A stretch of DNA of 5,643 bases from a virus (lineage: Duplodnaviria; Heunggongvirae; Uroviricota; Caudoviricetes): the IMG/VR virus record IMGVR_UViG_2698536618_000016, positions 1 through 5,643 of that record; one strand, written 5' to 3'. Made by a program: the position numbers. Positions within the stretch are counted from its first letter, which is position 1, and the number at the start of each line of letters is the position of its first letter. Below, one piece after another: positions 1 to 3,000 of the stretch.

Positions 1-3000
1 ACGGACTGCCCGTTGACGGACTTCAGGGGAAAAACGAGTATTTTTAGTCATCCTGTTTACCTCTTTCTCAGGAAGTTTAGTCTCCAGGATTCCCGGGGCG
101 GTTCAGTATCGAACAGAAAACAGTGACGATCTAACCCTTCAAGAATATTCTACGATTGTTCTGTTTAGGAAAAGCAAGGCGGGAAGTCAGGAGATAAGTC
201 ATTGATAAAGTGGCGGAGAGAGGGGGATTTGAACCCCCGGTAGAGTTGCCCCTACTCCGGTTTTCGAGACCGATGATACCGAATCGCAAAATCAAAAGGT
301 TATAAATTTTTCTTGGAATAAATGTCTTAAAAACATACACGAAAAATCAATAAATTACGTTGAATTCAATAAGAATATTCCAAGCCTTCTTTGAGTTATT
401 TTTGACCAGTTTGCTGTTTTTCTTTCTGATAAAATATTTCCTGATATCCCTTAACATTACTGATACTCACGTAGTGAATTTATGAGCAATCCTAATCCAT
501 GCATGGCGTGTGGTGCCTGTTGTGCATTTTTCCGCGTCTCTTTTTACTGGGCTAAAGTAGATGATGCTGGCGAAAGGTTTATCAGAAAACCGTAGCGCCT
601 TCTTGCATACGACGTGTCTGCGGTTTTATATAATCTCGACCAGAAACCTCTTATAAAAAGTCGATACACAAATATCATGGATAATCACCACCCTCTGACG
701 AAGAATATCTGATGAAATTAATCGCCCCTCTCCTGAGACCATTGCGCTGGGGTAAATTTGTAACTACCTGTGTACAGCGAGGTGTCGTATAGCACGCCGT
801 CAGGAAATGCAAGGTGTCCCCGATATCCCCGACTACGAGTCAGCAAACAAAGTGATTGGCTGGCAATCCACATCACAGAAATGGACAATGCTACTTTATA
901 ATCGAGTTTGGTAGCCACCTTGATGATCACTTTTAAAAAAAGCGTTTACACAAAATGGTAAGCAGGCTCACAGGCCCTCCCTCTAATCATCCACATTGTA
1001 AAGCTCCTTTGTTGTAAGTAAGGTCCGGCACCCTAATAATATCAAAAGGATCAAAATCATCACTGCATCCTTCCACAAGGCATTTCATTGCTCGTAGATC
1101 ACCATATAGCTCTGAAGAGTGGTGCGGACATAACAGATCATAAACTTTACATTTAGAACCTTCTTTACCTTGTCTACTTTCCTCAATTTTTACTTTCAAT
1201 GAATACAGAAAAAAAAGCTCCCTGATATAACCATCCCTGTCATCTATCGTCCTCCCCTCCCTCAGTGCTCCGACAACCTCATCAGTATTTTCATTTCTCA
1301 CCTCAAATACACTATTTCTCTTATCCATCAGCCCACTTACAAAAGCACTTAGCTCTTGATAAATTTCCTCAAGCTCATTACTATTTCTGGCATTTGAGTA
1401 TATAGAGGTCATAACATCAAGTTTATCTTGTAATTCAGGAGTAAGAAAATGCTTATGATTAAGTTCACTTACTGATTCCGGAGTCGAAGGGTTACCTCTT
1501 CCTGATACATACATCCATGAATAAAGATTTGCTGAAGAGCCACTTGTTGGTAACATATCAAACCCCCCTTAATAAATATTATAAAAAATATGGCTGTATA
1601 AAAATATTATACCTTACTTAATACCACACTAATAAGATCTTGCTTTCCTCCATGATAAGATTGCATGATTTCATGTCTACTCCATGAAATATCAGAAACA
1701 TTATAAGATGATATATCTATTGGATTAAATTCATTTCTCACACGATCATATAAAACATTTGTTTCTGTTGTATCAACAAAAAGAATTCCTTTTTTTCCAG
1801 TCTCTCAAACATATCATAAATAGCATGCTCAGCCTGTGCTGGCAAGGACGAAATATTTGAAAGCGATTCTCCATTTATTTTATCCATTCTAATACCAATA
1901 ATATCTCTATTATCGCCATATATTTTCTCTGCACTCCCGGTACCATAATACTGGTTGAAACAACGAACTTCGCTTGTCACCTCTTCATGGCTTTGAGATA
2001 TAGTAAACATCTTCAACACTTTTGTTGTATTTTCCATATCTTCATACACGACAGCATTACCACCTTTACCAATAACGTTACCTGGCACGGGTGATTTGTT
2101 GTTACTAAGCCTCAGCAACGCTGACTGAGTATAATCCGCTGGCGGTAACTCCGGCTGCGCATAATCCACTGGAGGTAAATCAGGTCTGTTCGAACGAACA
2201 GTTCCTCTTTCTATAGTCGTGCTCACTGTCGATGAATTCAGCATAGCCTCAATTTTTCTGGTGATCTCTCCCTTAGGCCATCCCAGTCTATACAGCATAT
2301 TAGTAAAACATCCACTATGACTCTCTCTTGTCACGCAAAACCTATTATCACTTAAAACAACGCGATATGTTCTGTTGCTAACCTTTACTTGCGCCCCATT
2401 ATCAGAGTGAGCGGCAGCATCCCTTACAGAGGGATAAAACACGATTATCAGGCAAAGTCAGGTTTCTGGTTAAAGAATTCCATGAACATCCCAAATTTAT
2501 AGAAGAGGGCGATAACATACATTTCAACCTTCAAAATAAACCTATCTAATTATTCCTAACAAACATCCACCTGACATGACAACAAAAACCGGAGCCGGAC
2601 TCCGGTTTTTGTGAAGCTGTCGGCTATTTCATTCCGCCAATATTTTCCCACCTCCCGTCAGCACGCAGGATTTGCAGTGGTCTTACCACACACTGTATCT
2701 GCTTTTTATCCGCATCCAGTATCACCACCTGCGTGATTACCCTGTCCTGCTCCGGGATAATACCATTCTCATCTGACTCCAGGATGTCTGCCGGCCCCAG
2801 TCGCAGTTGTGCTGTAAGCGACTGCACGTGTTCACGGCCATCATGCTTTCCGCAACCACACAGACGCTGCATAAGTTTTTTTAGTATATTCATGTCATTC
2901 TCCTGTTCTGCCTGTATCACTGCCCACTTCATCCAGCCCCTTAACATCCTGCCACGGCCCGTCACCAAACCTGACCTGCAAATGCTGAAAAAACCCCTGA

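What the first reader, a model, noticed from the sequence alone, without database searches (positions are those of the whole stretch)
273..986. About 700 bp of AT-rich, apparently non-coding or degraded sequence between nleF and the att fragment
No convincing intact gene fills this interval. It holds a 37-aa ORF with a CxxCxxCC motif that looks like the N-terminus of a longer protein (482-595), several short ORFs on the plus strand that change frame (677-712, 711-791, 808-912), and a 70-aa minus-strand ORF (718-930) of unknown identity. The pattern suggests remnants of eroded genes, possibly a decayed effector or the original cargo, rather than a working module. It is the least explained part of the window.
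Basis: inference. Interest (0 to 1): 0.4.

Follow-up and report, generated by a model that had tools for sequence, protein, structure and literature searches.

The report
Gene debris at a prophage end
The 700 bases between the effector gene nleF and the serU attachment-site fragment are ordinary prophage-end sequence: the phage's attachment-site arm followed by dead stubs of three genes (a ykgJ-like gene, a DNA invertase and an IS1414-like insertion sequence).

Summary
Window 273-986 has no intact gene and no Rfam RNA, and its short ORFs are about what chance gives. About 620 of the 714 bases can be assigned.

- 273-391: the tail-side (P) arm of the attachment site of a lambdoid prophage integrated in tRNA gene serU. 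It carries two exact CTTGGAATA copies. The same 9-mer recurs in tandem beside the integrase gene at the other prophage end in E110019.
- 392-470: AT-rich spacer, unassigned.
- 471-572: the first 30 codons of a ykgJ-like CxxCxxCC gene, which RefSeq already marks as a pseudogene in related genomes.
- 570-635: the right part of the ecpE-ykgJ intergenic block that phage HK633 annotates as its attP. It lies in permuted order relative to the ykgJ stub.
- 626-760, minus strand: the last ~45 codons of a Pin/Gin-type DNA invertase, frameshifted.
- 773-969: the last ~60 codons and terminus of an IS1414-like (IS256-family) element with internal deletions. It ends 17 bp from the nleF stop.

None of the pieces is a decayed effector. 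The 96-bp secondary attachment site attB-in-PP_2 of Nakamura et al. 2021 is absent. This is a typical scarred exchangeable effector locus. Interest is low.

The parts
210..272 (-). 3' part of tRNA-Ser gene serU, the att core copy at the tail-side end of the prophage. It lies just outside the finding but defines its left edge.
   Evidence: 60 of 62 bases match the 3' end of the intact serU at the integrase end of the E110019 prophage, L016 43474-43535. ARAGORN calls no complete tRNA here. Phage SerU-LTIIb annotates the same stretch as a tRNA-Ser pseudogene.
273..391 (.). Tail-side (P-type) arm of the attachment site of serU-integrating lambdoid phages, 26% G+C.
   Evidence: Window 200-391, which includes the tRNA fragment at 210-272, is 92% identical to phages ev099 and SerU-LTIIb and to the GF60 serU prophage; homology stops at about 391. 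Over 273-391/395 alone the identity is 84.9-87.8%. There is 1 difference in 119 bases against O103:H2 12009.
312..320 (+). Candidate arm-type integrase-binding site, CTTGGAATA.
   Evidence: Exact 9-mer, invariant in all 5 aligned serU phages and prophages. The same 9-mer occurs twice exactly, plus once with one mismatch, in tandem at L016 43397-43428, 45-77 bp from serU next to the integrase gene of the E110019 prophage. There are no other exact copies in 54.6 kb.
376..384 (-). Second candidate arm-type site, CTTGGAATA, inverted relative to the first.
   Evidence: invariant across the aligned phages.
392..470 (.). AT-rich spacer with no assigned origin.
   Evidence: No hit outside the genomes that hold the whole interval. 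It aligns only loosely, by eye, with SerU-LTIIb. 30% G+C. No promoter-like site was called.
471..572 (+). 5' stub of a ykgJ-like gene: about 10 bp upstream plus the first 30 codons, with ATG at 482. The ORF runs on to 595 in unrelated sequence.
   Evidence: 91% DNA identity to K-12 ykgJ (L006 1501-1598) and 90% to the intact phage-borne copy in GF60. tblastn gives 87% over residues 1-30, E=5e-18. The intact GF60 protein hits Pfam CxxCxxCC PF03692. RefSeq calls it 'incomplete; missing C-terminus', and it is additionally frameshifted in O103 12009.
570..635 (+). Right part of the ecpE-ykgJ intergenic block that phage HK633 annotates as its attP. It includes a terminator-like hairpin at 586-627.
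   Evidence: It aligns with K-12 L006 about 1424-1485, GF60, VT1-Sakai, HK633 attP and the pin flank of PSS-04. Window 600-635 is 100% identical to L005. HK633 annotates the block as attP. The hairpin folds at -15.6 kcal/mol, z -2.4. The junction with the ykgJ stub shares only 'CG'.
626..760 (-). 3' relic of a Pin/Gin-type serine DNA invertase (about residues 140-185 of 185), frameshifted by a 2-bp insertion. The catalytic domain is absent.
   Evidence: About 80% DNA identity to invertase genes of phage vB_EcoM-689R6 and E. coli PSS-04, and 77-80% to pinE in many genomes. tblastn aligns GRLISSDILRQRVVIIHDICVSTFYKRF with GRLIASGIPRQKVAIIYDVGVSTLYKRF at E=7e-8, and KFTPAQWSQ in another frame.
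773..936 (+). C-terminal relic of an IS1414-like (IS256-family) transposase (about the last 60 codons) with several deletions and frameshifts. The original stop TAA is at 934-936.
   Evidence: It aligns with the longer IS256-family pseudogene downstream of nleF in strain 2014C-3599 at 72% including gaps. That copy is 86-88% identical to IS1414. tblastn with the IS1414 C-terminus recovers ...FIIEFGSHLDDHF*. The 773-791 extension is my reading of the sequence.
937..969 (+). Right terminus of the IS1414-like element.
   Evidence: Homology to IS1414 (L014) ends at 969, and homology to two plasmid-borne copies next to unrelated genes (L012, L013) ends at 969 and 971.
970..986 (.). 17-bp spacer between the IS end and the nleF stop codon (987-989, minus strand).
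   Evidence: The junction is shared, with a 5-bp indel, with the 2014C-3599 locus.

Best explanation
Window 273-986 is the outermost, tail-side end of a lambdoid prophage integrated in the tRNA gene serU. It is the non-coding floor of an exchangeable effector locus. It holds one part with a plausible working role and a string of inert scars.

The part with a plausible role is 273-391. This is the attachment-site arm next to the tRNA core, the equivalent of lambda's P arm in attR. It carries two CTTGGAATA sites that I infer bind the N-terminal domain of the phage integrase during excision.

Everything to its right is debris from successive illegitimate joins:
- a ykgJ-like accessory gene cut after codon 30;
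- fused, through 2 bp of microhomology, to the right part of an attP block of the kind phage HK633 carries, with its hairpin;
- this block flanks the last ~45 codons of a Pin-type tail-fibre invertase;
- the invertase in turn was cut off by an IS1414-like element, of which only the last ~200 bp survive;
- that IS end abuts the 3' end of nleF.

The IS-nleF junction is also found in a second prophage context. This suggests nleH-nleF and the IS stub moved together into this phage, probably by recombination with another effector-carrying prophage, and that the invertase's 5' part was lost then.

None of the three gene stubs can make a functional protein. Shown: the homologies, the breakpoints and the repeat distribution. 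Inferred: integrase binding to the repeats, and the order and mechanism of the rearrangements.
For: - Context. The interval lies between a serU 3' fragment and nleF/nleH/tail-fibre/lom/J genes. In E. coli E110019 the intact serU and the integrase gene are 51 kb away.
- Arm. 273-391 is conserved in unrelated serU phages (84.9-87.8% over 273-391/395; 92% over 200-391 including the tRNA fragment). Homology ends at 391.
- Repeats. All four exact CTTGGAATA copies in 54.6 kb lie within 120 bp of the two att cores, two in each arm. The integrase-side arm has a third, one-mismatch copy directly adjacent.
- ykgJ stub. 91% to K-12 ykgJ over 99 bp. An intact phage-borne homologue sits at the same position in the GF60 serU prophage. 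RefSeq annotates the stub as a pseudogene.
- HK633-type block..
- Invertase stub..
- IS1414-like stub, and the IS-nleF junction shared with strain 2014C-3599 over window 792-2695 at 89%..
- Decay. Divergence from O103:H2 12009 is 2.7% in the interval against 1.6% in nleF and 1.2% in nleH, and 12009 has a further 1-bp deletion in the ykgJ stub.
- Nothing else found. No Rfam family, no Pfam or NCBIfam hit, and no excess of promoter- or terminator-like sites.
- Literature. Nakamura et al. 2021 (PMC8112680) report that effector loci at lambdoid prophage ends always contain IS elements and that ykgJ/ecpE-derived sequence is common there.
Against: - 392-470 (79 bp) and the 12-bp join at 761-772 remain unassigned.
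- Integrase binding to CTTGGAATA is inferred from position and repetition only.
- In E110019, the closest complete genome inspected, the integrase gene is frameshifted and the prophage is defective. The arm may therefore no longer be used. The window's own genome is not in the collection, so its integrase status is unknown.
- The number of ORFs of at least 25 aa is mildly above shuffles (1.8%). This fits recently dead genes but does not exclude a small expressed product.
- No transcription data were available.
Confidence: 0.85

Rival explanations
1. The ykgJ-derived sequence is a working secondary attachment site inside the prophage, through which other lambdoid phages integrate ('prophage in prophage'). 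This would be the attB-in-PP_2 of Nakamura et al. 2021.
For: That paper reports a 96-bp att sequence derived from the ykgJ/ecpE region, closely linked to effector loci at prophage ends. The window has two ykgJ/ecpE-derived pieces in such a locus.
Against: I located attB-in-PP_2 in PPompW_132418 by counting back from its annotated ompW repeat. Record 43274-43369 aligns to K-12 L006 1344-1439 over 96 bp at 81.25%, the figure the paper gives. That segment has no match in the window. The window keeps only L006 1501-1598 and about 1424-1485, so at most 16 bp of the site. It also holds only the right ~60% of the 106-bp HK633-type block.
Confidence: 0.03
2. The interval encodes a small functional product: either the 37-aa Cys-rich peptide (482-595), followed by the hairpin at 586-627 acting as its terminator, or a regulatory RNA such as the nleF 3' UTR or a prophage anti-sRNA.
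For: The ORF has an ATG and keeps the CxxCxxCC motif. A hairpin with a U-run overlaps the 3' end of the ORF, with its U-run about 30 bp past the stop (-15.6 kcal/mol, z -2.4). No terminator-like site was found directly after nleF, so nleF transcripts may read into the interval.
Against: - The ORF carries an extra frameshift in O103:H2 12009.
- No sigma-70-like promoter was called upstream.
- The hairpin is inherited from the att block, not specific to this locus.
- No Rfam match at E<=1.
- The interval diverges faster than the neighbouring genes.
Confidence: 0.05
3. The interval is the decayed remnant of a type III effector gene or other virulence cargo.
For: It lies in an effector locus directly downstream of nleF and nleH, and its G+C is effector-like at 40%.
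Against: About 620 of the 714 bp are accounted for by the att arm, ykgJ, the HK633-type block, the invertase and the IS1414-like element. No piece matched an effector gene in the DNA searches of the phage and E. coli collections. The effector genes seen in related loci (espM, nleG, espO, nleC, nleB2) lie elsewhere.
Confidence: 0.02

Closest known systems
Exchangeable effector loci (EELs) at the tail-fibre/att end of lambdoid prophages of EHEC and EPEC (term attributed to reference 20 of Nakamura et al. 2021, PMC8112680)
   Same: Same place in the phage map (after J, lom and tail-fibre genes, before the att site). Same cargo type (nleH, nleF). Same litter of IS remnants and ykgJ/ecpE-derived sequence.
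   Different: This copy sits in a serU prophage rather than at ompW, mlrA or ydfJ. It lacks the attB-in-PP_1, _2 and _3 set of PPompW (only _2 was tested). It also carries an invertase stub.
Lambda attP/attR P arm with arm-type Int sites (established knowledge of lambda site-specific recombination)
   Same: An AT-rich arm of about 120 bp next to the core on the tail/b-region side. A short repeat is present twice in this arm and two to three times in tandem in the int-side arm.
   Different: The core is the 3' end of a tRNA gene. The repeat sequence (CTTGGAATA) differs from lambda's. The two P-arm copies are inverted relative to each other. No binding data exist.
ykgJ of E. coli K-12 and phage-borne ykgJ-like genes (VT1-Sakai H0002; GF60 WP_073268888.1)
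   Same: 91% DNA identity over the first 91 coding bases, with the same CxxCxxCC N-terminus.
   Different: Only 30 of 109 codons remain.
Pin/Gin/Cin-type serine DNA invertases of prophages (pinE of e14 and relatives)
   Same: The C-terminal helix-turn-helix region is recognisable. It lies at the tail-fibre end of the phage map; from memory, that is also where pinE, pinR and pinQ lie in the K-12 prophages e14, Rac and Qin.
   Different: The N-terminal catalytic domain is missing, there is a frameshift, and no invertible segment or crossover sites were identified.
IS1414 (IS256 family)
   Same: The transposase C-terminal codons and the 33-bp terminus are recognisable. The same IS stub lies downstream of nleF in the 2014C-3599 locus.
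   Different: About 85% of the element is missing, with several internal deletions. The window copy is about 72-78% identical to its relatives.
attP of phage HK633 and its copies in HK97-like phages, which HK633 annotates as matching the ykgJ-yagV(ecpE) intergenic region
   Same: Window 570-635 aligns with the right part of that block and is followed by the tail-side phage arm, as in HK633 and PSS-04.
   Different: The left ~45 bp of the block and the integrase-side arm are replaced by the ykgJ stub, so this is not a complete att site.

Membership tests
YkgJ / CxxCxxCC family (Pfam PF03692) | Complete ~85-residue domain that reaches the Pfam gathering score | tested here: not met
   The 37-aa ORF gives no Pfam hit at E<=1. 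The intact GF60 homologue scores 42.7 bits against a cutoff of 23. Only residues 1-30 align.
YkgJ / CxxCxxCC family (Pfam PF03692) | N-terminal CxxCxxCC motif and sequence homology to ykgJ | tested here: met
   [30 protein letters not shown] is 87% identical to YkgJ residues 1-30, and the DNA is 91% identical to K-12 ykgJ.
Serine DNA invertase (Pin/Gin/Hin) | N-terminal resolvase-type catalytic domain with the active-site serine | tested here: not met
   tblastn with two invertases aligns only residues ~140-185. Nothing from residues 1-139 is found in or near the interval.
Serine DNA invertase (Pin/Gin/Hin) | C-terminal helix-turn-helix DNA-binding region | tested here: met
   28 residues at 68% identity, E=7e-8; DNA is 80% identical over 590-760 with a 2-bp frameshifting insertion.
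IS256 family, IS1414 | Intact transposase gene | tested here: not met
   Only about the last 60 codons remain, with deletions and frame changes.
IS256 family, IS1414 | Element terminus at a sharp homology boundary shared by copies in unrelated contexts | tested here: met
   Homology to IS1414 and to one plasmid copy ends at window 969, and to the other plasmid copy at 971. The neighbouring genes differ: nleF, a YopT-type protease gene and uilS.
Attachment-site arm of a serU-integrating lambdoid phage | Directly adjoins a duplicated tRNA 3' core, with the intact tRNA and integrase gene at the other prophage end | tested here: met
   60 of 62 bases match between window 211-272 and serU in E110019. 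The integrase gene lies 27 bp from serU.
Attachment-site arm of a serU-integrating lambdoid phage | Conserved among phages using the same site, with homology ending at a discrete arm boundary | tested here: met
   Five-way alignment with ev099, SerU-LTIIb, GF60 and O103 12009; homology ends at about 391.
Attachment-site arm of a serU-integrating lambdoid phage | Repeated arm-type sites present in both arms | tested here: met
   CTTGGAATA occurs at 312-320(+) and 376-384(-). L016 43397-43428 holds two exact copies and one one-mismatch copy. There are no other exact copies in 54.6 kb.
Attachment-site arm of a serU-integrating lambdoid phage | Binding by, and recombination with, the cognate integrase | not testable with these tools
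   This needs biochemistry or an excision assay. In E110019 the integrase gene is frameshifted.
attB-in-PP_2 (Nakamura et al. 2021) | The 96-bp sequence homologous to the ecpE-ykgJ intergenic region (K-12 L006 1344-1439) | tested here: not met
   The PPompW_132418 copy aligns to K-12 over 96 bp at 81.25% but has no hit in the window.
HK633-type attP (also carried by HK97-like phages) | The complete ~81-106-bp identity block (K-12 L006 1380-1485) | tested here: not met
   Only the part equivalent to about 1424-1485 is present.
Any Rfam RNA family | Covariance-model match | tested here: not met
   No match inside 273-986 at E<=1.

The most novel reading that the evidence does not exclude
The permuted junction at window 570-572 joins ykgJ +91 directly to position -85 of the ecpE-ykgJ intergenic att block, next to the tail-side phage arm. 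It may be a fossil of an aberrant, lambda-gal-like excision of a phage that was integrated at the ecpE-ykgJ site. Such an event would have carried the start of ykgJ into the phage genome. On this reading, imprecise excision, later spread by recombination, is how at least the ykgJ stub in this serU prophage entered a phage. A single such event cannot explain copies such as VT1-Sakai's, which hold sequence from both sides of the att block.
Probability: 0.3. Interest if true: 0.3.

Novelty: already known. Interest (0 to 1): 0.1.

Why it matters
It matters little beyond annotation. The dissection shows that the least explained part of the window is explained by four or five known kinds of sequence. 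It shows that the att site extends about 120 bp further than the tRNA fragment. It shows that RefSeq misses the invertase and IS stubs in this lineage. It shows that nleH-nleF share the IS1414-like stub in two prophage contexts. This is a small, concrete example of how effector loci at prophage ends are assembled by IS-associated and illegitimate recombination. It also rules out, for this prophage, the secondary attachment site attB-in-PP_2 described for 'prophage in prophage' integration.

Tried and rejected
- **Small RNA.** An Rfam scan at E<=1 found nothing in the interval.
- **Hidden protein family in the short ORFs.** Pfam and NCBIfam gave nothing, apart from a sub-threshold CxxC hit at 15.7 bits against a cutoff of 40.
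- **The ykgJ stub as the 96-bp attB-in-PP_2.** I first thought so, because the stub is about 99 bp and shares its right breakpoint with the espM-proximal ykgJ-like segment of PPompW (L004 461-623). I then located the real site in PPompW from the paper's spacings. It maps to K-12 L006 1344-1439 and is absent from the window. The shared breakpoint at ykgJ +91 in PPompW and the window remains unexplained.
- **The PPompW 'hypothetical protein' as a homologue of 792-891.** It is a chimeric ORF: the Lom N-terminus read through into the same IS stub. It is not a gene family.
- **Promoters and terminators.** The promoter and terminator scan showed no excess over shuffles, and no terminator-like site directly after nleF.
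- **Source genome.** No complete genome in the collection matches the whole window. The best matches are 96-98% identical, although 273-986 is 100% identical in E110019 and O39:NM F8704-2.
- **Large searches not used.** I did not run the large protein or structure searches. The fragments are too short to gain from them, and the DNA homologies were decisive.
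Full report
**What is there.** No ORF exceeds 70 aa. A longest ORF of 70 aa is reached in 36% of 1000 dinucleotide-preserving shuffles of 273-986. The count of ORFs of at least 25 aa is mildly high, 13 against 8.4 +/- 2.0. G+C is 39.8%, similar to nleF (37.9%) and nleH (38.5%). Only 273-470 is strongly AT-rich, at 26-30%. ARAGORN finds no tRNA gene. Rfam at E<=1 finds nothing inside the interval. Pfam and NCBIfam find nothing significant in any short ORF.

**Context.** The 714 bp occur at 97-100% identity in 110 of 5426 complete E. 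coli genomes. These include E110019, O39:NM F8704-2, O103:H2 12009, O145:H28 strains and an O157:H16 strain. In the four genomes inspected the interval lies between the hprRS-hiuH-msrPQ-zinT(-yodB) chromosomal region and nleF-nleH-tail fibre-lom-J. In E110019 the prophage is about 51 kb long. At its other end are an intact tRNA-Ser gene (serU), mtfA and an integrase gene that ends 27 bp from the tRNA. In that strain the integrase and portal genes are frameshifted, the terminase gene has an internal stop, and two IS3-family elements are inserted, so the prophage is defective. Window 211-272 matches the 3' 62 bases of serU at 60 of 62 positions. The interval is therefore the tail-side end of a serU-integrated lambdoid prophage. 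The whole window is not identical to any complete genome in the collection; the best matches are 96-98%.

**Piece 1, 273-391: attachment-site arm.** Window 200-391, which includes the tRNA fragment, is 92% identical to the equivalent stretch of phage ev099, phage SerU-LTIIb (where it follows an annotated tRNA-Ser pseudogene) and the GF60 serU prophage. Over 273-391/395 alone the identity is 84.9-87.8%. Homology among these otherwise different phages stops at about 391. The 9-mer CTTGGAATA occurs exactly at 312-320 (+) and 376-384 (-). In the 49 kb of the E110019 prophage it occurs exactly only at 43397-43405 and 43410-43418, with a one-mismatch copy at 43420-43428. These form a tandem triplet 45-77 bp from serU, beside the integrase gene. 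Both window copies are invariant in the five-way alignment while their surroundings vary. Two sites in the tail-side arm and three tandem sites in the int-side arm mirror the lambda P1-P2 / P'1-P'3 layout (established knowledge of lambda). I read them as arm-type integrase sites; this is inference, as binding was not tested.

**Piece 2, 392-470.** This stretch is unassigned. It aligns only loosely, by eye, with SerU-LTIIb, and no promoter-like site was called.

**Piece 3, 471-572: ykgJ stub.** It is 91% identical to K-12 ykgJ from 7 bp upstream of the ATG to codon 30 (L006 1501-1598). It is 90% identical to an intact 109-codon phage-borne ykgJ-like gene at the same position in the GF60 serU prophage. 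At protein level it is 87% identical over residues 1-30. The intact homologue carries Pfam CxxCxxCC. RefSeq marks the stub as an incomplete pseudogene, and in O103 12009 it has an additional 1-bp deletion. VT1-Sakai has a similar truncated copy, H0002, 'similar to YkgJ'.

**Piece 4, 570-635: partial HK633-type att block.** This stretch aligns with K-12 L006 about 1424-1485, which lies in the ecpE-ykgJ intergenic region upstream of ykgJ. It also aligns with the same block in GF60, VT1-Sakai and PPompW. Phage HK633 annotates this block as 'attP; similar to non-coding region between ykgJ and yagV'. HK97, HK75, HK106, mEpX2, phi80 and lambda itself carry copies. In E. coli PSS-04 the complete block lies between an integrase gene and a pin pseudogene. 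In the window only the right part survives, including a hairpin at 586-627 (-15.6 kcal/mol, z -2.4). The two ykgJ-locus pieces are in permuted order: +91 of ykgJ is joined to -85 of the intergenic region, and they share only 'CG'. That is an illegitimate junction.

**Piece 5, 626-760 minus strand: invertase stub.** The DNA is about 80% identical to the 3' ends of invertase genes in phage vB_EcoM-689R6 and PSS-04, and 77-80% to pinE in many genomes. tblastn aligns residues 152-179 of 185 at 68% identity (E=7e-8), and KFTPAQWSQ in another frame. The frame change is explained by a 2-bp insertion. Window 600-635 is 100% identical to the flank of another invertase pseudogene. The catalytic domain is absent.

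**Piece 6, about 773-969 plus strand: IS1414-like stub.** In strain 2014C-3599, nleF is followed by a longer 'IS256 family transposase' pseudogene. Window 792-2695 aligns with that locus at 89%, through the IS stub, nleF, nleH and the end of the tail-fibre gene. That pseudogene is 86-88% identical to IS1414. In the window the stub has several deletions, but the C-terminus FIIEFGSHLDDHF*, with its stop at 934-936, is recognisable. Homology to IS1414 ends at 969, and homology to two plasmid copies next to unrelated genes ends at 969 and 971, which marks the IS terminus. A 17-bp spacer follows before the nleF stop. The PPompW 'hypothetical protein' that matched 792-891 is a Lom N-terminus read through into the same IS stub.

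**Test of the most interesting alternative.** Nakamura et al. 2021 (PMC8112680) describe a 96-bp att sequence, attB-in-PP_2. It is derived from the ykgJ/ecpE region and linked to effector loci, and other lambdoid phages integrate through it into prophages. Using the paper's spacings and the annotated ompW repeat of PPompW_132418, I placed the site at record 43274-43369. It aligns to K-12 L006 1344-1439 over 96 bp at 81.25%, the value the paper reports. It has no match in the window. The window therefore does not hold this site.

**Selection.** Against O103:H2 12009 the interval differs at 19 of 714 positions (2.7%). nleF differs at 9 of 570 (1.6%) and nleH at 11 of 914 (1.2%). The att arm differs at 1 of 119. 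The numbers are small, but they fit unconstrained relics plus a conserved arm.

**Verdict.** Its interpretation, eroded genes rather than a working module, is right in outline but wrong in several details. There is no effector remnant. Two of the 'frame-changing' plus-strand ORFs are antisense to a minus-strand relic. The first 120 bp are an att arm, not gene debris. This is an ordinary, already described kind of sequence: a scarred exchangeable effector locus at a prophage end. The only open point of some evolutionary interest is the permuted ykgJ/att-block junction. It could record capture of ykgJ by aberrant excision of a phage integrated at the ecpE-ykgJ site. This is inference, and I put its probability at about 0.3.

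Noticed in passing
window 1-103: The match of nearly all related genomes starts at window 104. Bases 1-103 look like the terminal inverted repeat and the first codons of OrfA (MTKNTRFSPEVRQRAVR, minus strand) of an IS629/IS1203-like IS3-family element inserted about 106 bp from the serU fragment. The IS identification is from memory, plus the 'IS3 family transposase' annotation under the one genome (2011C-4251) whose match starts at base 1.
   Followed up: partly
window 1607-2518 (minus strand): nleH is broken. The ORF list shows 1738..2442 and 1607..1741 as separate ORFs. RefSeq marks nleH as frameshifted in E110019, O103:H2 12009 and F8704-2, while nleF next to it is intact.
   Followed up: partly
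window 211-272 against L016 43474-43535: The displaced serU 3' fragment differs from the intact serU at two positions (A/G and T/C). By eye these look like the two sides of one base pair in the variable arm, so the two att copies are not identical.
   Followed up: no
L006 1377-1485; phage lambda NC_001416.1 24170-24259: The ecpE-ykgJ intergenic block that HK633 annotates as attP is also present at 83% identity in the b region of phage lambda, and in phi80 and many other lambdoid phages, at places that are not their own att sites. Its left edge falls within 4 bases (K-12 L006 1377-1381) in all of them.
   Followed up: partly
L004 461-623 (PPompW_132418 record about 40596-40758) and window 572: PPompW carries a second ykgJ-like segment next to espM. 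Its homology to K-12 ends at the same position (ykgJ +91) as the window's stub, although the sequences beyond that point differ. This shared breakpoint is unexplained.
   Followed up: partly
L012 3001-3089 and L013 3001-3131 (E. coli plasmids): The same IS1414-like terminus abuts the 3' ends of three unrelated minus-strand genes within a few bases: nleF, a YopT-type cysteine protease gene and uilS. This may mean a preference of this IS for sites just downstream of genes, or a role in moving them.
   Followed up: no
window 2582-2612: A perfect-looking palindrome with a T-run (aaaaaccggagccggactccggttttt) lies between the tail-fibre C-terminal gene and nleH. It appears as a self-inverted match in several comparisons and is probably a bidirectional terminator at the edge of the effector cassette.
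   Followed up: no
L001 and L019 against L002, upstream of window 104: E110019 and F8704-2 have no annotated yodB between zinT and the serU fragment, whereas O103:H2 12009 does. About 770 bp are missing.
   Followed up: no
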